Shown: piece after piece, positions 8,601 to 39,476 of the stretch
Layout: every line of letters starts with the position of its first letter
Position numbering within the stretch: position 1 is the stretch's first letter
Origin: Escherichia coli
GTDB taxonomy: Bacteria > Pseudomonadota > Gammaproteobacteria > Enterobacterales > Enterobacteriaceae
Assembly: GCA_031701365.1 (NCBI GenBank)
Contig: GCA_031701365.1_4118.1
Length of the DNA: 64,000 nt
Reading direction: 5' to 3' (one strand)
Notes under the pieces: generated by a model
What the model was told of the DNA's origin: nothing
The model's input: the letters and a program-made list of their open reading frames with translations, nothing else
Database searches by the model: none
Program-made: the position numbers and the translations under genes

Positions 8601-8978
8601 ATGACTACTATATATGATATTTTGGGTGTTCTGAGTAAAAATATAGATGATGATTTTGTTATTGTTCAAGATACTAGAAATACATTTCAACTACCATTAG
8701 GTTCACCAGATAGGTTAATTTTTAATAGATACTCAAATGAACTAACTTACATCCATGATGGGATTGCAATTGTATCAGTTTCTATAAACGACTATACAAT
8801 ACGATATGTATATGACTTCAACGATTATTGTACAAGAATCCACAGTATTGATATTTCCGAAGAGGAACTATTCCAATTGTCAGTGATTGAGAAAAATGTA
8901 ATAGGAATTACAGAAATTGATATTATTAAAAAAGCATTAAACTATACAAATATAAGAATTAATGGTGGGTGCAGATGA
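8601..8978 (+). CDS. FFQ-motif family protein
   Basis: 'SEEELFQLSVIEKNVIGITEID'. Confidence 0.6.
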   Translation: MTTIYDILGVLSKNIDDDFVIVQDTRNTFQLPLGSPDRLIFNRYSNELTYIHDGIAIVSVSINDYTIRYVYDFNDYCTRIHSIDISEEELFQLSVIEKNVIGITEIDIIKKALNYTNIRINGGCR

Positions 8979-9430
8979 ATGTTGACGAAATAAAAAATCA
9001 TTTTGAAATTGCAATGTCATGTGAATTTGACACACAACGTGTTCATTACCCGAAAGAACATATACGCATTTGTTGTGAATTGTCAGATGATTGTAATATT
9101 TTTATTGGAAAAACCTATGACATGATCGATCTTTCATGTATAGATCCATTGGAAAGAAAAACAAAATATTTATATCTGTACAACACAACATCAGATACGA
9201 TTGCAATACAACTAATATCAACCACAACATCCCAAAGTTATTATAACATAACTGAGGTTAGTAGTTTAACGTTAACCGAAGAAGGATTCTTTCAACAATC
9301 GCTTATTCGTGAAATTGGTGTTAGTTATGATGAGTTAAATGTATTAGTAGATTGTTTTGAAAAATTGAGTACTTTTGTATTATCCCTTTTTAATATACAG
9401 TCGCAAAATCCAATGGTGGTGAAATGCTAA
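8969..9430 (+). CDS. FFQ-motif family protein
   Basis: 'TEEGFFQQSLIREIGVSYDELN'. Confidence 0.6.
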   Translation: MQMNVDEIKNHFEIAMSCEFDTQRVHYPKEHIRICCELSDDCNIFIGKTYDMIDLSCIDPLERKTKYLYLYNTTSDTIAIQLISTTTSQSYYNITEVSSLTLTEEGFFQQSLIREIGVSYDELNVLVDCFEKLSTFVLSLFNIQSQNPMVVKC

Positions 9431-9864
9431 ATCCAAGTAAATTTCTCCACTTACTTTCGATAACATCAATACCGGATCTTACCAGTGAAACTAATGAATA
9501 TCGTGAAGCTGGGGTGGTGTCTATGGAACTCGATACATTTGACCACAAATGCTATGTGACATATGACCCACCGCGTTATGGTAAAGAACATTCTTCTTTT
9601 ATTTTTGTATTCGTATACACTGTATATGATAATACAACACTTGATGATGTTTGTATTGACACTTACGAAATTTGTGATAATATCATAACTGATGACAACA
9701 ATAACTCATTTGATATGTCACTATATAACACAGAAGAATCGTTGTTTCAACTTAGTACTGTTATTGATGCACCATCATTAGAAGATATAAAACAATTTCA
9801 CGAACATCTTGACGCAGTTCGTGAGATGTTCTATAATCATTATCCAGAAGTAGAGTTCAATTAA
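9424..9864 (+). CDS. FFQ-motif family protein
   Basis: 'TEESLFQLSTVIDAPSLEDIKQF'. Confidence 0.6.
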   Translation: MLNPSKFLHLLSITSIPDLTSETNEYREAGVVSMELDTFDHKCYVTYDPPRYGKEHSSFIFVFVYTVYDNTTLDDVCIDTYEICDNIITDDNNNSFDMSLYNTEESLFQLSTVIDAPSLEDIKQFHEHLDAVREMFYNHYPEVEFN

Positions 9865-20334: not shown

Positions 20335-20670
<336 letters not shown>

Positions 20671-20671
20671 A

Positions 20672-20854
20672 ATGACACACGAAGAATGGATGTCCAAACA
20701 GCATAAAGAACATGACTGCTTTGGGAATGGTATTCGTCAGGTACATTATGATATTCTCAAAGATATAAATTTATTCATAAAATATGTTTTGGATGAAAAT
20801 AAACATTGGTTTATATATGAGATTGCATATAGAAACTCAAATAAACAAAAATAA
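20672..20854 (+). CDS. MTHEEW-family mini-protein
   Basis: Starts MTHEEWM; ends 'HWFIYEIAYR' like the 20153 copy ('HWFIYELAIR'). Confidence 0.45.
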   Translation: MTHEEWMSKQHKEHDCFGNGIRQVHYDILKDINLFIKYVLDENKHWFIYEIAYRNSNKQK

Positions 20855-20868
20855 ATAAGGAATATATT

Positions 20869-21087
20869 ATGGAAACAACGTTATTTGAAGTTATTCAAGC
20901 ATTAAAAACTGGTGATGACATTCAAGTATTGCTACATGGTTATCGTTTAAAAGGCACTGTGGTTTTAGTTAATGACACAACGTTAGTTATTGCCGAAACA
21001 AATCCATATGATAGTAATCAAGTTGCTAATATCCATATTGATATTAAAAGCATTATTGGTGTAGGCGTAAATAAAAATCAAGAATAA
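20869..21087 (+). CDS. hypothetical protein
   Basis: 72 aa ORF. Confidence 0.45.
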   Translation: METTLFEVIQALKTGDDIQVLLHGYRLKGTVVLVNDTTLVIAETNPYDSNQVANIHIDIKSIIGVGVNKNQE

Positions 21088-21165
21088 CAAATGTTTTTGA
21101 AAAAACCAGAAAATGAATGATTTTTTTGGGACAACTCAAAAATATATGATATAATAATTAGTACA

Positions 21166-21255
<90 letters not shown>

Positions 21256-21259
21256 ATAT

Positions 21260-21361
<102 letters not shown>

Positions 21362-21364
21362 AAC

Positions 21365-21487
21365 CATGACGCATGAAGAATGGATGAATGACATTAATTT
21401 TAGATATGCAGGTTTCGGTAACTGGAGAAAGTATCATTGGGAAATCATGTCAGACCCAGCAGAATACGATAAACTTATAAACCATGA
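21365..21487 (+). CDS. MTHEEW-family mini-protein
   Basis: 40 aa starting MTHEEWM. Confidence 0.35.
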
Positions 21488-21526
21488 AGCGTATCCGTGG
21501 TTCTTTATTGAAATAATGGTACGAAC

Positions 21527-21692
<166 letters not shown>

Positions 21693-21700
21693 AAAAAAAG

Positions 21701-21733
<33 letters not shown>

Positions 21734-21734
21734 A

Positions 21735-22114
<380 letters not shown>

Positions 22115-22171
22115 CTAAATAATTCAGTACTGAGAATATTAATATGTTTAAAGATGAACGTCCAGATTTGT

Positions 22172-22209
<38 letters not shown>

Positions 22210-22214
22210 GAATT

Positions 22215-22557
22215 CCACAATCAGACGTATATGGTGTAAGTTACGTCGATGCTATCCAGAACAAGATCTCTGGTACTCTAGGAAGTGGTGAATGTTAACC
22301 TAGACGGGTTTGATAATTGGACGATAGGCAATTATTACTTGACTAGCAGGTTGAAACTAGAGGTGACAGTCCTTCACCAAACTGGAAAACCGGATGGACT
22401 TTTATTTAAAAGGGTAAGGCGTGGAAATATGTTTACAGAAGTTGCTTTTAGTAGCCTGTACGCACCACGTCAAGGTAGCCGAAAGGTAAGTTAAAACGGG
22501 TGGTTATAAAGCTGAATTAACAGCGGCGTTTAAAAGCGTCACCATCCATTTTTTTTT
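22215..22557 (+). ncRNA. candidate small stable RNA inside the tRNA cluster
   Basis: ~340 nt without a convincing ORF, higher GC, promoter directly upstream, ends in a T9 run (22549-22557). Confidence 0.3.
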
Positions 22558-22573
22558 AATTAAAGTTGGCAAT

Positions 22574-23067
<494 letters not shown>

Positions 23068-23070
23068 TAC

Positions 23071-23226
<156 letters not shown>

Positions 23227-23247
23227 CATAAACAATGAGAGGTATAA

Positions 23248-23765
<518 letters not shown>

Positions 23766-23805
23766 CAGGGGAGGTTGTGATTCCCGATTCAGTAGTTTTA
23801 AAGCT

Positions 23806-23914
<109 letters not shown>

Positions 23915-24075
23915 AGAGGTACTTAGAGTATACTCAGTTCACCTTTAGCTAAAATGGTCACGGTAGAATATTGTTGCAACAGTATTCAGTACTACTTTTT
24001 TAATTGACATAACTTTGAATGGAGTGTATTATGTTCCAAGAAGAAAACTGGGGTTTTTAACATAACGGGGAATGT

Positions 24076-24218
<143 letters not shown>

Positions 24219-24261
24219 AATGCGAAAGAGTATGGAGACTTGTTGGTTATCTTACTTCCTA

Positions 24262-24350
<89 letters not shown>

Positions 24351-35139: not shown

Positions 35140-35637
35140 ATGACAACTGTTTATATTGATAAACGATTAAATTTATTGATTACCGATTCTAGAGTTACGT
35201 CAACTATACCACGAAACTTATTTGGTTTTTTCCCACTAAGACCAAAATATCAATATGGAGTTGTTAATCAAAAAACTTTATATGTACATGACCGTTTATT
35301 CAGTGCTAGTGGGTCAGTAAGTGAAATTGATAAAGTACTGGATTGGTTAATTAATAAAGTACCAGTTATACCTGACAGAAAGTTAAGTTGCCATTGTGTG
35401 CTTCTTTCTAAAGATTATGTTATTCATATGATTTTAACTAAAGGAAAGTTTATTAAAAAACTTGAATATCTACATGAAGACTACACTTTCTTTATGGGAA
35501 GTGGTGGAGAATACATGCTAGATGCTGCTATTCATGAAGAACATACAACTTTATATGATAAAGTGTTTAGTACTTTCATGGATGTGCATAACCATGATTG
35601 CTTCACAGATGATAATATTAATGTATATCGATTTTGA
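35140..35637 (+). CDS. hypothetical protein immediately upstream of sigma factor
   Basis: 165 aa. Confidence 0.5.
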   Translation: MTTVYIDKRLNLLITDSRVTSTIPRNLFGFFPLRPKYQYGVVNQKTLYVHDRLFSASGSVSEIDKVLDWLINKVPVIPDRKLSCHCVLLSKDYVIHMILTKGKFIKKLEYLHEDYTFFMGSGGEYMLDAAIHEEHTTLYDKVFSTFMDVHNHDCFTDDNINVYRF

Positions 35638-35658
35638 TTTCGTCATTAGGAGATGTAA

Positions 35659-36624
35659 GTGAAAAAGCTTGATTTAAATACAATTGCCGAAGAAGTTCTG
35701 GATGAATGTTTTGCTAATGAAGAAGTCAACACACTAGAAGCCTTAGATTTCGTTGAAGATAAAGATGAAAATGAAGGTAAAGTACAAAGCAGTTTCAAAT
35801 ATAATATTACACTTAAGCGACCACCAAATGTTTCCAATGAAGATCTAATTCGTGATATTCAAGCTGGTATCAATGTAAAGAAAAACACTGAACTGTTAGT
35901 TCGTTACAATTATGGACTTATTATTGATGTAGCAAGTAAATGTACTTGTTATATCCCATTTGAAGATAAGATTTCATATGGTGTTGAGGGGTTCATGAGA
36001 GCACTAAAAACCTTTGATCTTAATAAGAATGTTAAGTTCATTACCTATGCTTCTTCTAGTATTTACATGACAGTTTATAACGAAAGTTCTGACGCTAACT
36101 ATATGGTACACTTCCCACGTTATATGAGTGTTCATAAGATCAAAGTAAAAAGATTCTGTCAGGAATATATGCGTAAACATGGTGTTCGCCCAACTCCTGA
36201 AATAATCTCAGAGGGTACTGGGATTGAGATTCAGCATGTTAATAACTGTTTGTTATTTCAAAGCGAATACACTTCTCTGGATGCACCATTAGACGGTGTT
36301 ACCGATGGTACACTAGGTGACATTATTCATTCACCTGCTTCTGATTTTAACCTCAATGTTGATAGTATCCGTGCACCTTTACGTTATGCTATCAATGAAC
36401 TGACCAACGAATTGAGTACTAAAGAACGTGAGATTATCCAGCGTGTTCATGGTCTAGGTGAATATGAACCTGAAACGCTTCGTGAGATTGCTGATAATGG
36501 TTTTGTTGATGATAATGGAAAATATGTTAAATCCCGTTCATCAATACACCGAAAGTACAGTGAAGCTATGCAAAAGCTTAAGAAGCTAGTACTTGCAAAA
36601 GGGTACGAATACGAAGATTTCTAA
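35659..36624 (+). CDS. sigma-70-family RNA polymerase sigma factor
   Basis: 321 aa, GTG start after AGGAG; region-2-like 'YGVEGFMRALKTFD...FITYASSSIYMTV', region-4-like 'LSTKEREIIQRVHGL...ETLREIA...SRSSIHRKYSEAMQKLKKL'. Confidence 0.6.
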   Translation: MKKLDLNTIAEEVLDECFANEEVNTLEALDFVEDKDENEGKVQSSFKYNITLKRPPNVSNEDLIRDIQAGINVKKNTELLVRYNYGLIIDVASKCTCYIPFEDKISYGVEGFMRALKTFDLNKNVKFITYASSSIYMTVYNESSDANYMVHFPRYMSVHKIKVKRFCQEYMRKHGVRPTPEIISEGTGIEIQHVNNCLLFQSEYTSLDAPLDGVTDGTLGDIIHSPASDFNLNVDSIRAPLRYAINELTNELSTKEREIIQRVHGLGEYEPETLREIADNGFVDDNGKYVKSRSSIHRKYSEAMQKLKKLVLAKGYEYEDF

Positions 36625-36630
36625 AGAAAA

Positions 36631-36657
36631 AAGGTTGGCTTATGCCAACCTTTTTTT
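36631..36657 (+). terminator. rho-independent terminator (AAGGTTGGC-TTAT-GCCAACCTT + T7)
   Basis: Perfect 9-bp stem and T-run after sigma gene stop. Confidence 0.7.
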
Positions 36658-36689
36658 ATGGGATGAAGTAAAAGTTTGTGATATAATTA

Positions 36690-37180
36690 TCTTGTACAAT
36701 TCTGTTGGCATGATATTCATGTACCTGATCCACTCGAAAACGTAGAGGGCAGTTGAGCAGTCCGACAGTGCGAACAGCAAAAGAAACCCGTTAGATGTGG
36801 GCATAGTTTGAACCCCTCACGGCAATGCGGCTGTATAAAGAACCACGTTAGGATAGCTGGTGGTTCCTTGATAGACATATAAGGATAACACCTTACGAAT
36901 TATCTAAGGGAGAGTTATCGAATTTTGTACAGGAAAGTTGCGTCCAAAATTTGAGTACTCACATTAAGTATTTGATTGCATAGATACTTAATGAAGATAC
37001 ACTATGTTTAAAAGTGTAGACCGTCATATGAAACTGAAGTAGAGAGAAACAGGATGACCCGCTTTCGCACTCGTTATGAGTAATCTTCAATGCAATAGCT
37101 CTGATACCATCAGCGTCAAATTTCCCTCCTTGTGGGGGGAAGAAAAATCCCTTCCTCAAATCCCGTCAATATTAAAAGTC
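36690..37180 (+). ncRNA. candidate structured non-coding RNA / non-coding island
   Basis: ~500 nt with stops in all plus frames, locally elevated GC, preceded by extended -10 (TGaTATAAT 36676-87), followed by promoter at 37182. Confidence 0.3.
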
Positions 37181-37274
37181 CTTGACAGTTATTAATCATT
37201 CGCGTAGAATACGTAGTATTAGAAGCGAACAGACATCTCGAAGAGATGGATGATTAACCATTAAGGAATATCCA

Positions 37275-37484
37275 ATGAATTCAGTAATCTTTTTAGTAGT
37301 CGCTTTCTCTGTTAATTCCGGTATACAAATAACCCCAATGAATTCCATGAATCAATGCATAGCAGTACGTGATAGTACATACGAACAAGTAAACAAAGAT
37401 ATTTGGATTACAGTTAATAAAGAACAAATGTGGTGTTACAATAGTAATACTAACACAAAGCTTATTGTAGGACAAACTCAATGA
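37275..37484 (+). CDS. small secreted/membrane protein
   Basis: 69 aa; hydrophobic N-terminus. Confidence 0.45.
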   Translation: MNSVIFLVVAFSVNSGIQITPMNSMNQCIAVRDSTYEQVNKDIWITVNKEQMWCYNSNTNTKLIVGQTQ

Positions 37485-37711
37485 GTTATGGTGTTCGTTT
37501 TGAGATTCGTTCTATTGTCATCGATGCAGAGAAACAAGTATCGTTAGATGGTGATATACGTGAAATTTATCTATCATGTATCCGTGCGAAATCTGAAGCA
37601 GATGCCTTAGTACAAATGTATAGTTTTAACTTTTCAAATGGATTCTATTTGGTACGAGTTGTTGAAGTTAAAAAAGTAATTCTTGGTTGTTGCATAGAAG
37701 GAATAATGTAA
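37481..37711 (+). CDS. hypothetical protein
   Basis: 76 aa ORF, ATGA overlap. Confidence 0.45.
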   Translation: MSYGVRFEIRSIVIDAEKQVSLDGDIREIYLSCIRAKSEADALVQMYSFNFSNGFYLVRVVEVKKVILGCCIEGIM

Positions 37712-38500
37712 ATGAGCACTATCGATGAACTGATTCAACGGAATTCAAAATATTACCAACCATCAGAAATTGTGGATAACATTACTAAATCTGAGTTTGG
37801 ACCGAACACACGCAAACTCATTCATGTAATGTCACGTGATGGCTTTAAATGTGATTGTTGTGGTGAATCAAATGTAGTATTCACTTTACACAAGCACAGT
37901 ACTAAAGAACGTTATAAATTCAGACCTTATGTACTTAAAGGGAAACGTCTTGTACGCATGACGTTAGACCATAACGTACTGGACTGTCTTCAGGGCGGTA
38001 ATGATAAAGAGAACATGACTGCATTGTGTGAAGATTGTAACGCATTACGTCAGCATAAGTTTGCTGAGTACAGTGAGTTTAAACACTGGTATCATAACGC
38101 GGATCGTTCAATCGAGCCTGACGTTAACTACTGCTTCATTGAGTACATTAAGAATGCAAAAGATACATACATTCTTAAATCAATGTCACCTATTACCGTG
38201 TTTCCTGAGAACCTATTCACTACATTAAAGAATAGTTTTATTGTAGGTGATATTGATGCATTCAAGTATTTTGACAAAGGTGCAAAACATTTTGAAATTC
38301 AATGTCTTAGTACTGCACTATGTGAACTCATTAAAATTTACATAAAAGAGTATTTGGGTATTGACAATGTACGTGTACCAGAGTATACTTTTTCTATTGA
38401 ATTCAATTGTGAATCAATCAAAGAGTTTGGAATTCTTTTCAATAAACAAATAGAACTTGCAATTCAAAACGAAATCAAGTACTATACTACTAACATTTAA
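37712..38500 (+). CDS. HNH endonuclease
   Basis: 262 aa; 'FKCDCCGES' (CxxC), 'TLDHNVLDCLQGGNDKENMTALCEDCNALRQHK' (DH...N...CxxC-N). Confidence 0.7.
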   Translation: MSTIDELIQRNSKYYQPSEIVDNITKSEFGPNTRKLIHVMSRDGFKCDCCGESNVVFTLHKHSTKERYKFRPYVLKGKRLVRMTLDHNVLDCLQGGNDKENMTALCEDCNALRQHKFAEYSEFKHWYHNADRSIEPDVNYCFIEYIKNAKDTYILKSMSPITVFPENLFTTLKNSFIVGDIDAFKYFDKGAKHFEIQCLSTALCELIKIYIKEYLGIDNVRVPEYTFSIEFNCESIKEFGILFNKQIELAIQNEIKYYTTNI

Positions 38501-38515
38501 TCAGAGGAAATTATC

Positions 38516-38698
38516 ATGCAAATCATCATTCTTATCGTTGGTATCATGTTGGGTGTTTATGGTCACTCATGGATGAACGAGAAGTTTCCTAATACGCGTC
38601 CTGAATATTGCAGTTCTAATGTATTCCAGAATGGTGAGAAACCAAAGGAAAGCATTGGTAAAAAGCTGGATAAAGTACTTGATGTGATCAATGAATAA
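38516..38698 (+). CDS. small membrane protein
   Basis: 60 aa; 'MQIIILIVGIMLGVYG'. Confidence 0.45.
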   Translation: MQIIILIVGIMLGVYGHSWMNEKFPNTRPEYCSSNVFQNGEKPKESIGKKLDKVLDVINE

Positions 38699-38708
38699 GG
38701 GCCATAAA

Positions 38709-38909
38709 ATGTTTAAACCGAATTCCAATGTTGGAAAGAAAGTTCAATTACTTGAGGATGTATCCACTCTGAGTGGGATTTTCCCAAGAGGTCACATCAT
38801 GACTATTATTGCCGAAACATCCCGTGGTTGGGACTTGGAAGATGCTGATGGTAATCGCATCCTTGAGGCTGGCTTCTATGGTCATCGTGAATATAAAATT
38901 ATCGATTAA
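38709..38909 (+). CDS. hypothetical protein
   Basis: ATG 38709 after AAGGG; track ORF 38691 trimmed. Confidence 0.45.
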   Translation: MFKPNSNVGKKVQLLEDVSTLSGIFPRGHIMTIIAETSRGWDLEDADGNRILEAGFYGHREYKIID

Positions 38910-39006
38910 GGATATAAAATGATGTTAGAGGCTATCGTTGGTATTGTTAGTTTTAGTCATCTGTGTTGCTTGCTTTGGGTATATGATGATTTTTGGTGAT
39001 TAATAC

Positions 39007-39034
39007 TTGACAGAAGATATCAGTACTGTATAAT
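39007..39034 (+). promoter_or_regulatory. CAGTACTG-class promoter (TTGACA-16-TATAAT)
   Basis: 'cttgacagaagatatcagtactgtataatgtttatatcaa'. Confidence 0.6.
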
Positions 39035-39079
39035 GTTTATATCAAACGAAATCCACTTTAACAAATGATAGGAAATATT

Positions 39080-39358
39080 ATGTCTTTTTCTAAAGAAGAA
39101 CGTGACCTTATTAAAAAAGCAATCTGGTTTTATGCTAATGAAGGGAAGTGCGATGAAGAAAAAGCACGTGAACTGTGTAATATCTTTGAGAAGAAACAAG
39201 ATCTAAAAGTGTATCGTATCCGTGATTTGGATGAAGGGGATCGTATTGTCCTAGCTGAAACAAAAGAAGAAGCAGAACAAATCTTCACTGATAAAAACGA
39301 AAATCCACATTGGATGGAAGAAGTCTGTGATGTTAAAAAAGGTACTTATATCGATTGA
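39080..39358 (+). CDS. hypothetical protein
   Basis: ATG 39080 with AGGA RBS; stop TGA embedded in next promoter -35. Confidence 0.5.
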   Translation: MSFSKEERDLIKKAIWFYANEGKCDEEKARELCNIFEKKQDLKVYRIRDLDEGDRIVLAETKEEAEQIFTDKNENPHWMEEVCDVKKGTYID

Positions 39359-39383
39359 CAGTACTGAATAATAGCAGTATAAT
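39355..39383 (+). promoter_or_regulatory. CAGTACTG-class promoter (TTGACA-17-TATAAT)
   Basis: 'ttgacagtactgaataatagcagtataatgtttatatcaa'. Confidence 0.6.
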
Positions 39384-39476
39384 GTTTATATCAAAGGGAA
39401 TGCAGTGAAAGGAAAGACAGCATAATCGTACTCGTCACTGCGTTTCCACCCTTTTAAATTAATTAAGGAATTAACT

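What the first reader, a model, noticed from the sequence alone, without database searches (positions are those of the whole stretch)
37712..38500. HNH endonuclease gene in a small operon downstream of the non-coding island
The protein has a clear HNH signature (CxxC ... DH ... N ... CxxC-N). Established knowledge: free-standing HNH genes in T4-type phages are commonly homing endonucleases or packaging-associated nucleases. Proximity to the 600-bp non-coding island and to the sigma-factor gene raises the possibility that this is a mobile insertion.
Basis: partly seen in the sequence, partly recalled or inferred. Interest (0 to 1): 0.45.

Follow-up and report, generated by a model that had tools for sequence, protein, structure and literature searches.

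The report
Free-standing HNH nuclease gene, jumbo phage
The gene is a real, intact HNH DNA-cutting enzyme that public records of this giant E. coli phage already annotate; some close relatives have lost all or part of it, and the "non-coding island" beside it is a separate, undescribed structured RNA gene.

Summary
The ORF at 37712-38500 (+, 262 aa) is the ortholog of Escherichia phage 121Q gp170, which GenBank annotates as "HNH endonuclease". The window is about 99% identical to 121Q, a Rak2-like jumbo myovirus (Asteriusvirus), not a T4-type phage in the strict sense.

- **Active site:** all HNH residues are invariant in a 23-member family alignment. A confident AlphaFold model matches Cas9, McrA and phage HNH domains.
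- **Architecture:** an N-terminal nuclease domain under strong purifying selection, plus a roughly 90-aa helical C-terminal domain of unknown fold that occurs as two very divergent, swapped alleles.
- **Polymorphism:** it is real. JNE01, Turkey5 and EC22.5-2 lack gp169+HNH at identical breakpoints. Phage A4 has an in-frame deletion of the nuclease domain only.
- **Direction of change:** the HNH-less allele looks like a deletion remnant, so there is no evidence of a recent insertion.
- **Likely role:** a Mob/Seg-like selfish or competition nuclease, but this is unproven. A packaging role is not supported.
- **The island:** it is not an insertion scar. It holds a roughly 480-nt, multicopy RNA gene with strong covariation support and no Rfam match, present whether or not the HNH gene is there.

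The HNH finding itself is ordinary. The RNA deserves its own follow-up.

The parts
37712..38500 (+). HNH endonuclease gene (262 aa; ortholog of 121Q gp170)
   Evidence: ORF; 99.2% aa identity to 121Q gp170, annotated 'HNH endonuclease'; phrog_35175 E=9e-188.
37850..38041 (+). Catalytic core, C47 to N110: a CxxC...CxxC zinc knuckle, D86-H87, N101 and N110 (H-N-N variant)
38228..38497 (+). C-terminal helical domain (aa 173-262), unknown fold; occurs as divergent, exchangeable alleles
38361..38389 (+). Promoter-like site inside the HNH coding region (TTGACA-17-TATACT), probably serving gp171/gp172
   Evidence: 11/12 consensus matches. A colinear 44-nt match (38361-38404) survives in the spacer of the HNH-less EC22.5-2 allele: 0/300 shuffles reach its score within the deleted region. 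It is only one of several top hits window-wide.
37481..37711 (+). gp169 (76 aa, unknown function), joined to the HNH gene by TAAATG and lost together with it
   Evidence: phrog_28392, unknown function. Absent together with HNH in JNE01, Turkey5 and EC22.5-2. Present but only 52% identical in A4.
37275..37484 (+). gp168 (69 aa as the longest ORF; 121Q annotates a shorter start at 37347), first cistron of the operon
   Evidence: Its last ~30 nt are replaced in the HNH-less allele, and the preceding ~150 nt are exchanged along with it in EC22.5-2.
37182..37210 (+). Sigma70-like promoter of the gp168-gp169-HNH operon (TTGACA-17-TAGAAT)
   Evidence: 11/12 matches. The position is conserved downstream of the RNA element in the other copies.
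37454..38491 (+). Presence/absence cassette (end of gp168, gp169, HNH), replaced by an 86-94 bp spacer in HNH-less phages
   Evidence: Same left breakpoint (37453) and right breakpoints within 5 nt (38492-38497) against JNE01 and Turkey5 and EC22.5-2.
37724..38254 (+). Segment (codons 5-181, the nuclease domain) removed by an in-frame deletion in phage A4
   Evidence: A4_184 reads MSTI|NAFKHLDKG.... It matches phrog_35175 positions 180-259 at E=8e-22 and is 89% identical to the WPEC5-type C-terminus.
37300..38600 (.). Recombination tract that swaps HNH+ and HNH- alleles between otherwise near-identical genomes
   Evidence: EC22.5-2 is mostly 97-100% identical to the window outside this tract. 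Inside it, EC22.5-2 is 98-100% identical to JNE01 across gp168 and about 82-88% across the short alignable spacer.
38516..38909 (+). Downstream small ORFs gp171 (38516-38698) and gp172 (38691-38909), kept in all alleles
   Evidence: The HNH-gp171 adjacency is conserved in 121Q-type, WPEC5-type and the distant contig L031.
36688..37176 (+). Context, not part of the HNH unit: a ~480-nt conserved structured RNA gene, the core of the 'non-coding island'
   Evidence: 95-100% identical among phages whose flanking genes are 50-80% identical. 68 predicted pairs, 33 with compensatory changes; 97.8% of cells paired against 82.6% in shuffles (0/500) and 33-47% in slid controls. An extended -10 box TGaTATAAT lies at 36679-36687. 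No Rfam match.

Best explanation
**What it is.** The gene encodes an intact, early-expressed, free-standing HNH (H-N-N variant) DNA endonuclease. It belongs to a small two-domain family found so far only in Rak2-like jumbo phages.

**How it is expressed (shown).** It is the third cistron of an operon of abutting or overlapping ORFs, gp168-gp169-HNH, behind a sigma70-type promoter at 37182-37210.

**How it cuts (inferred from the family).** The N-terminal beta-beta-alpha-metal domain is stabilised by a Cys4 zinc knuckle (C47, C50, C106, C109). H87 acts as general base. D86 and N110 hold the Mg2+ ion.

**Target choice (inferred).** The ~90-aa helical C-terminal domain, which exists as two ancient, swapped alleles, probably binds the target DNA and sets specificity.

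**Role (inferred).** The most likely role is that of a Mob/Seg-like selfish or competition nuclease. In mixed infections it would cut the DNA of related phages that lack the cassette or carry another allele. The cassette would then be copied or lost by recombinational repair through the flanking homologous DNA. The ultraconserved RNA gene immediately upstream is a ready-made left homology arm.

**History (partly shown).** In this lineage the gene is an old resident of the locus. It is now being lost piecemeal in some phages.
For: **Identity and fold**
- Searches identify it as gp170.
- The catalytic and zinc residues are invariant in 23 homologs.

**Constraint**
- The nuclease domain has dN/dS 0.06 against the WPEC5 allele and 0.11 against a 59%-identical ortholog.

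**Expression**
- Promoter and tightly joined ORFs.
- The CBB genome paper places the homologous region among early genes with RpoD-like promoters. It also calls the CBB homologs free-standing HNH homing endonucleases (PMC5259590).

**Signs of mobility or turnover**
- Three phages lack the cassette at identical breakpoints.
- A ~1.3-kb tract with co-exchanged flanks sits in a near-identical genome.
- A4 has lost only the nuclease domain.
- The gene appears split in SD-1_S14 and CMSTMSU.
- Family members sit in other gene contexts, and some genomes carry two, in Serratia BF, CBB, GAP32 and Yersinia phages.

**Domain modularity**
- N-terminus 96.5% identical against C-terminus 47.5% between the two allele types.
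Against: - No cleavage or homing data exist.
- The HNH-less allele looks like a deletion remnant rather than an unoccupied target (weakened).
- The one recent exchange seen (EC22.5-2) moved the HNH-less allele into a 121Q-like background, which is the opposite of homing. That record is flagged UNVERIFIED_ORG, so a chimeric assembly is possible.
- An ortholog of 59% identity at the same locus, together with strong purifying selection, fits a retained useful gene as well as it fits a selfish one.
- No known homing-endonuclease DNA-binding module was found.
- The whole early region is a recombination mosaic, so indels here need no nuclease to explain them.
Confidence: 0.5

Rival explanations
1. 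It is a resident accessory nuclease with a phage-beneficial job, such as early degradation of host or competitor DNA or superinfection exclusion. It is not itself mobile. The presence/absence pattern reflects ordinary deletions and homologous recombination in a hyperplastic early-gene region.
For: - It is expressed from an early sigma70-type promoter next to the phage sigma factor.
- It sits at the same locus in three lineages down to 59% identity.
- Both domains are under purifying selection.
- The HNH-less allele resembles a deletion scar.
- The whole region is a mosaic of alleles.
Against: - It is dispensable: at least JNE01, Turkey5 and A4, and EC22.5-2 if that assembly is sound, are isolated phages without an intact copy.
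- Related genera carry paralogs in different contexts.
- Free-standing HNH genes with this pattern are generally selfish (established knowledge of the T4 mob/seg genes).
Confidence: 0.33
2. It is a catalytically inactive HNH-fold protein that acts as a DNA-binding regulator. The C-terminal domain would be the functional part.
For: - The C-terminal domain survives alone as an intact ORF in A4, with dN/dS 0.14 against the WPEC5 allele.
- The terminal metal ligand is Asn rather than His.
Against: - The full catalytic set (D86, H87, N101, N110) and the Cys4 site are invariant across the family.
- H-N-N variants such as I-HmuI are active enzymes (established knowledge).
- The nuclease domain is the most constrained part of the gene.
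Confidence: 0.07
3. It is an RNA-associated or RNA-guided nuclease that works with the ~480-nt structured RNA encoded about 540 bp upstream.
For: - It lies next to a large structured RNA.
- The closest structural neighbours are Cas9 and IscB HNH domains.
- There is a weak NCBIfam hit to the HNH segment of IscB (E=3.8e-4).
- HNH-family ORFs lie 0.5-5.6 kb downstream of the sigma-adjacent RNA paralog in several genera.
Against: - There is no RuvC domain. The IscB model scores 19.7 bits against a cut-off of 175.
- The RNA is kept at 92-100% identity in HNH-less phages.
- About 30 other RNA loci have no HNH-family gene in the flanks that were fetched.
- No variable, guide-like end is evident at the RNA's conserved 5' end.
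- The co-occurrence is explained by synteny of a single locus.
Confidence: 0.03
4. It is a packaging-associated HNH that assists the terminase, as in HK97 gp74-type phages.
Against: - The gene lies among small early ORFs beside a sigma factor. No terminase or portal gene lies within 6 kb upstream or 7 kb downstream.
- It is 262 aa with two domains, not a ~100-130 aa single domain.
- Some viable relatives lack it.
Confidence: 0.02

Closest known systems
Annotated orthologs and family members in Rak2-like jumbo phages (121Q gp170; PBECO4; Serratia BF gp391; Pectobacterium CBB_528/CBB_535; Yersinia fHe-Yen9-04 g517)
   Same: Same protein (99% identical to 121Q gp170) or the same two-domain family, with identical HNH signature residues. 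GenBank annotates them as HNH endonucleases, and the CBB paper calls the CBB genes free-standing homing endonucleases.
   Different: None of them has been tested biochemically. The family members in other genera sit in different gene neighbourhoods and are only 25-40% identical.
T4 free-standing HNH and GIY-YIG homing endonucleases (MobA-E, SegA-G)
   Same: A stand-alone nuclease ORF between phage genes, sporadically distributed among relatives, with flanking markers exchanged along with it. The catalytic domain is N-terminal and the presumed DNA-binding part is C-terminal. The Mob/Seg properties come from established knowledge.
   Different: No sequence-level membership was shown. The C-terminal domain has no recognised module such as NUMOD or IENR1. 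The empty allele looks like a scar rather than a target. Homing is untested.
I-HmuI (phage SPO1 intron-encoded H-N-N nicking endonuclease)
   Same: The H-N-N variant of the motif, with Asn in place of the last His (N110). It is phage-encoded. The I-HmuI details come from established knowledge.
   Different: I-HmuI is intron-encoded and lacks the Cys4 zinc knuckle. No significant sequence match to any PDB chain was found.
HNH domains of Cas9, IscB and McrA (closest solved structures)
   Different: No RuvC domain and no guide-RNA dependence is indicated. Identity is 8-18%. The resemblance is at the level of the fold, not family membership.

Membership tests
HNH / beta-beta-alpha-metal (His-Me finger) nucleases | Beta-beta-alpha-metal fold | tested here: met
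HNH / beta-beta-alpha-metal (His-Me finger) nucleases | General-base His (in a D-H dipeptide), the conserved Asn, and a terminal His or Asn metal ligand | tested here: met
   D86, H87, N101 and N110 are invariant in 23 homologs and present in the window protein.
HNH / beta-beta-alpha-metal (His-Me finger) nucleases | Two CxxC pairs forming a structural zinc site (zinc-knuckle subclass) | tested here: met
   C47, C50, C106 and C109 are invariant.
HNH / beta-beta-alpha-metal (His-Me finger) nucleases | Score above the Pfam gathering threshold for PF01844 or PF14279 | tested here: inconclusive
   The window protein scores 15.7 against 21.4 bits and 15.1 against 27.5 bits. However, 19/23 and 16/23 family members hit HNH_5 and HNH at E<0.01.
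HNH / beta-beta-alpha-metal (His-Me finger) nucleases | Metal-dependent DNA cleavage | not testable with these tools
   Needs purified protein.
Free-standing homing endonuclease (T4 Mob/Seg type) | A stand-alone ORF with a homing-endonuclease-family nuclease domain, not inside an intron or intein | tested here: met
   It is a separate cistron between gp169 and gp171. Rfam finds no intron.
Free-standing homing endonuclease (T4 Mob/Seg type) | Presence/absence polymorphism among close relatives with conserved flanks | tested here: met
   JNE01, Turkey5 and EC22.5-2 lack 37454-38491. EC22.5-2's flanks are mostly 97-100% identical to the window.
Free-standing homing endonuclease (T4 Mob/Seg type) | The endonuclease-less allele is an intact, cleavable target site | tested here: inconclusive
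   The spacer in HNH-less phages keeps a colinear 44-nt match to 38361-38404, which suggests a deletion remnant. The match includes promoter hexamers and is not unique window-wide.
Free-standing homing endonuclease (T4 Mob/Seg type) | Site-specific cleavage near the insertion site, and super-Mendelian inheritance with co-conversion in crosses | not testable with these tools
   There is only one natural ~1.3-kb exchange tract, and its direction is toward loss.
Free-standing homing endonuclease (T4 Mob/Seg type) | A recognised DNA-binding module (NUMOD, IENR1, AP2 and the like) | tested here: not met
Terminase-associated HNH (HK97 gp74 type) | Gene adjacent to the terminase/portal genes; a small single-domain protein | tested here: not met
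   The neighbours are a sigma factor and small hypothetical ORFs over the 15.8 kb examined. The protein is 262 aa with two domains.
RNA-guided HNH nucleases (IscB / Cas9) | A RuvC domain interrupted by the HNH domain, and an obligate partner RNA | tested here: not met
   The NCBIfam IscB model matches only the HNH segment, 19.7 bits against a cut-off of 175. The neighbouring RNA occurs without HNH in most loci and in HNH-less phages.

The most novel reading that the evidence does not exclude
The nuclease may be functionally tied to the ultraconserved RNA gene next door. Its natural cleavage target would be the DNA of that ~480-nt RNA gene, just as Seg/Mob enzymes target tRNA genes or other conserved genes. 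The dispersed RNA-gene paralogs would then serve as landing pads and homology arms for the cassette. That would explain why HNH-family ORFs lie downstream of the sigma-adjacent RNA paralog in several genera. The swappable C-terminal domain would re-target the enzyme. A still less likely version (about 0.02-0.03) is that the protein binds the RNA itself.
Probability: 0.1. Interest if true: 0.6.

Novelty: already known. Interest (0 to 1): 0.3.

Why it matters
For the HNH gene itself, little changes. Public jumbo-phage records already annotate it as an HNH endonuclease, and this analysis confirms that the annotation is sound.

The modest added value is an evolutionary picture. The domains are modular: a conserved nuclease domain joined to an ancient, swapped C-terminal domain. 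A nuclease-less remnant is kept as an ORF in A4. A clean ~1.3-kb allele-exchange tract exists between near-identical genomes. Together these supply natural HNH+ and HNH- partners (121Q-type against EC22.5-2 or JNE01) for a direct test of homing or exclusion in jumbo phages.

The more important by-product is the RNA. The adjacent 'non-coding island' is a large, covariation-supported, multicopy RNA family with no Rfam match. In the collections searched it is confined to Rak2-like jumbo phages.

Tried and rejected
- **AF2 with only 4 close homologs** gave an unusable model (pLDDT 48.8). It was redone with 23 diverse homologs.
- **The afdb50 fold library** was not available.
- **PADLOC** gave no defence-system match for HNH, gp168, gp169 or gp171-173.
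- **NCBIfam** gave only a sub-threshold match to the HNH segment of IscB, so IscB membership is rejected.
- **P0024**, a 971-aa protein with 14 repeats matching aa 174-213, is a low-complexity repeat artefact and was ignored.
- **Other copies in the window:** there is no paralog of either HNH domain and no second RNA copy.
- **PA5oct transcripts:** I tested whether the island RNA is homologous to the RNA-seq-supported ncRNA001/002 of the related jumbo phage PA5oct. nhmmer found no similarity in PA5oct 1-30000.
- **Rfam**, including a lax-filter scan of the island alone, found nothing.
- **Single-sequence folding of the island** was uninformative on both strands (z about -2). Comparative analysis was decisive instead.
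- **Literature searches** for a description of the RNA or of gp170 function found only genome papers.
- **The 'deletion scar' reading** of the HNH-less spacer was checked against the whole window and downgraded to suggestive.

Full report
**Where the window comes from.** Window 35600-39400 is 99.2% identical to Escherichia phage 121Q (KM507819), and 96-99% identical to about 20 other Escherichia and Salmonella jumbo-phage records. These are Rak2-like jumbo myoviruses of about 350 kb, genus Asteriusvirus. They are only distant members of the T4 superfamily. In 121Q the ORF in question is gp170, annotated 'HNH endonuclease'. Its neighbours are gp167 (an RNA polymerase sigma factor), a ~720-bp unannotated gap, and gp168, gp169, gp171 and gp172, all hypothetical.

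**Checking the observation.** The ORF at 37712-38500 (+, 262 aa) exists as described.
- It matches phrog_35175 'HNH endonuclease' end to end (E=9e-188) and 13 further HNH PHROGs.
- On its own it is below Pfam's gathering score for HNH and HNH_5 (15.7 and 15.1 bits).
- An exhaustive HMMER search of 1.84 billion representative proteins found only 140 relatives at E<=1e-3. About 20 of them are full-length two-domain proteins of 280-330 aa.
- In an alignment of 23 members, 22-78% identical to the window protein, the invariant columns are M1, C47, C50, T84, D86, H87, L90, G95, N101, C106, C109, N110, R113 and F123. That is a Cys4 zinc knuckle plus the D-H...N...N catalytic set.
- 19 of 23 members hit Pfam HNH_5 and 16 of 23 hit HNH.
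- With that alignment AlphaFold2 gives a confident model (pLDDT 91.0, pTM 0.68).

**Anatomy and expression.** A sigma70-like promoter (TTGACA-17-TAGAAT, 11/12) lies at 37182-37210. gp168 (37275-37484) overlaps gp169 (37481-37711) by ATGA. The gp169 stop abuts the HNH start (TAAATG), with an AAGGA Shine-Dalgarno sequence upstream. A second promoter-like site (TTGACA-17-TATACT, 38361-38389) lies inside the HNH C-terminal coding region, upstream of gp171 and gp172. The CBB genome paper describes the homologous region of that phage as an early-gene block rich in RpoD-like promoters. It lists three free-standing HNH homing endonuclease genes there (PMC5259590). No terminase or portal gene is nearby, so a packaging role is not supported.

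**Two domains with different histories.** Between the 121Q-type protein and the WPEC5-type protein (P0002), residues 1-170 are 96.5% identical. Residues 176-262 are only 47.5% identical.
- The nuclease part has dS 0.32 and dN/dS 0.06.
- The C-terminal part has dS 1.07 and dN 0.46.
- Neighbouring genes range from dS 0.04 (gp173) to 1.45 (sigma).
- Against a 59%-identical ortholog (P0003), both domains still show dN/dS of 0.1-0.3.

**Insertion polymorphism.** The locus occurs in four states.

| State | Phages | Description |
|---|---|---|
| 1 | about 20 records, including the window phage | 121Q-type, full length |
| 2 | about 9 records | WPEC5-type, full length |
| 3 | A4 | In-frame deletion of codons 5-181; leaves MSTI fused to NAFKHLDKG... 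as an 87-aa ORF (A4_184) |
| 4 | JNE01, Turkey5, EC22.5-2 | Window 37454-38491 (end of gp168, gp169, HNH) replaced by an 86-94 bp spacer carrying a TTGACA-17-TATAAT or TATACT promoter, at the same breakpoints |

A4_184 matches phrog_35175 positions 180-259 and is 89% identical to the WPEC5-type C-terminus, with dN/dS 0.14. The copies in SD-1_S14 and CMSTMSU appear split into pieces. Those may be frameshifts or sequencing errors.

**The EC22.5-2 tract.** EC22.5-2 is the most telling case. It is about 100% identical to the window from 35600 to ~37290, and mostly 97-100% identical (with a dip to 83-88% at 38866-38985) from ~38600 onward. Between those points it follows the HNH-less phage JNE01: 98-100% identical across gp168 and about 82-88% across the short alignable spacer. 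That is a very recent ~1.3-kb exchange tract carrying the HNH-less allele, with ~150 bp (left) and ~100 bp (right) of co-exchanged flank. Its left end abuts the ultraconserved island. Two caveats apply. The record is flagged UNVERIFIED_ORG. And the only other record with the same 73%-coverage, two-piece match (ECO103 4-12-1) has the same length, so it may be the same phage.

**Direction of change.** Positions 35-78 of the EC22.5-2 spacer (an HNH-less allele) align colinearly with 38361-38404 inside the HNH gene. 0 of 300 shuffles reach the score within the deleted region. This suggests the 'empty' allele is a deletion derivative that kept the internal promoter. The match includes the promoter hexamers and is not the single best hit window-wide, so I rate it as suggestive only. 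In the metagenomic contig L031, an ortholog of 59% identity sits at the same place: sigma factor, island, a few ORFs, HNH, then a gp171-like ORF. Its upstream neighbour is different. Together these indicate long residence at this locus with repeated partial or complete loss, rather than a recent insertion. Family members in Serratia BF, CBB, GAP32, Yersinia and Erwinia phages sit in other gene contexts, and some genomes carry two. That is the main evidence that the family has moved on a longer timescale.

**What the island is.**
- After the sigma gene's terminator hairpin (36626-36657; annotated as a terminator in phage UE-S1) comes an extended -10 promoter (TGaTATAAT, 36679-36687). Then comes a ~480-nt element (36688-37176) that is 95-100% identical among phages whose flanking genes are only 50-80% identical.
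- It is multicopy, with 3-5 places per genome in Escherichia, Salmonella, Erwinia, Serratia, Pectobacterium, Cronobacter, Yersinia, Xanthomonas and Klebsiella jumbo phages.
- A motif scan retrieved 20 loci from IMG/VR and 20 from metagenomes, but none from 185,579 bacterial and archaeal species genomes.
- RNAalifold on 19 copies predicts 68 base pairs, 33 of them with compensatory double changes.
- In the pair count, 97.8% of cells are paired, against 82.6% in shuffles (0/500) and 33-47% when partners are slid. The covariation score is 0.47, against 0.07-0.12 for the slid controls.
- G-U pairs and the promoters identify the + strand as the transcribed one.
- Nearly every distinct upstream region carries a TGnTATAAT box (or a TATAAT cut by the 50-nt extract), and about a third also have a TGAAAC -35-like element.
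- Rfam 15 has no match.
- The other 121Q copies lie in unannotated gaps at about 192.8 kb and 326.6 kb. The second sits between two minus-strand genes, so the element is not simply a 5' leader.

**How the island relates to the HNH gene.** HNH-less phages keep the RNA at 92-100% identity. About 30 RNA loci have no HNH-family ORF in the flanks that were fetched. Only the sigma-adjacent paralog has one, 0.5-5.6 kb downstream, and that is explained by synteny. The island is therefore an independent RNA gene plus promoters. It is not evidence of an insertion, though its extreme conservation makes it a natural homology arm for allele exchange.

**Mechanism and verdict.**
- *Shown:* the gene is intact, constrained, has an HNH fold, sits behind a sigma70-type promoter in an early-gene context, and is free-standing, polymorphic and modular.
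- *Inferred:* it cuts DNA by the standard HNH mechanism, with H87 as general base, D86 and N110 holding the metal, and a Cys4 zinc site. The C-terminal domain is taken to select the target.
- *Role:* the most likely role is a Mob/Seg-like selfish or competition nuclease (confidence 0.5). The main rival is a non-mobile accessory early nuclease whose polymorphism reflects ordinary deletion and recombination (0.33). Inert regulator (0.07), RNA-associated nuclease (0.03) and packaging cofactor (0.02) are unlikely.
- *Novelty:* the finding is real but ordinary, and already annotated in public records.

Noticed in passing
window 36688-37176 (+); other copies e.g. L016:1725-2227 (+), L028:2873-3383 (+), L019:6036-6528 (+), L011:2237-2726 (+), L020:2683-3176 (+): A ~480-nt conserved, multicopy (3-5 per genome) structured RNA family in Rak2-like jumbo phages. 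It has 68 predicted pairs, 33 with compensatory changes. 97.8% of cells are paired against 82.6% in shuffles (0/500), and the covariation score is 0.47 against about 0.1 for slid controls. It has no Rfam match and no exact motif hit in 185,579 species genomes. It is more conserved (95-100%) than the flanking protein genes (50-80%). Its function is unknown. This looks like an undescribed large ncRNA class and deserves its own evaluation.
   Followed up: partly
window 36679-36687, and upstream of every RNA copy (L009-L050): Each RNA paralog is preceded within 50 nt by an extended -10 box, TG(A/C/G)TATAAT; about a third also have a TGAAAC -35-like hexamer. In several paralogs a hairpin plus U-run lies between the promoter and the conserved 5' end. 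In others a terminator-like hairpin plus U-run is inserted near the 3' end, around alignment columns 512-550 of A3.
   Followed up: partly
L005:2183-2446 (phage A4, A4_184): A nuclease-less remnant of the HNH gene: the start codon plus 4 codons fused in frame to the C-terminal domain (87 aa). It is still an intact ORF, with dN/dS 0.14 against the WPEC5-type allele, so the C-terminal domain may function on its own.
   Followed up: partly
window 35659-36624 (+): The phage sigma-70-family factor gene is unusually divergent among otherwise close relatives: 57-74% aa identity and dS 1.45 against WPEC5. Yet it is immediately followed by the near-invariant RNA gene. Distinct sigma alleles (121Q-like, A4-like, JNE01/WPEC5-like) are shuffled among genomes.
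   Followed up: partly
window 39007-39034 and 39355-39383 (+): Two perfect 12/12 sigma70 consensus promoters (TTGACA-16/17-TATAAT) lie within 350 bp, flanking the gp173 ORF. Phage Turkey5 lacks the segment between them (window ~39057-39377).
   Followed up: no
window 39065-39358 (+): The homolog of this 97-aa ORF is annotated 'sigma-70 family RNA polymerase sigma factor' in phage A4 (A4_187). Pfam gives no sigma-domain hit here, and PHROG labels it unknown function (phrog_24324), so that annotation looks unsupported.
   Followed up: yes
window 20357-24340 (+): A cluster of six tRNA genes: Gly-TCC, Ser-TGA, Ser-GCT, Met-CAT, Asn-GTT and Thr-TGT.
   Followed up: no
L052:1464-1621 (phage UE-S1, ON568341 80759-80916): The only public annotation found over the RNA element is an unlabelled 'repeat_region' covering 158 bp of its 5' part. 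Several other records instead call short 'hypothetical protein' ORFs across it, which are probably spurious.
   Followed up: no
L009:6811-7323 and 8939-9808 (Serratia phage BF gp397, gp391); L011:6249-6500 (CBB): In other genera, one short and one full-length member of the same HNH family lie 3.5-5.6 kb downstream of the sigma-adjacent RNA paralog. The region downstream of this RNA gene seems to be a recurrent home for HNH genes.
   Followed up: partly
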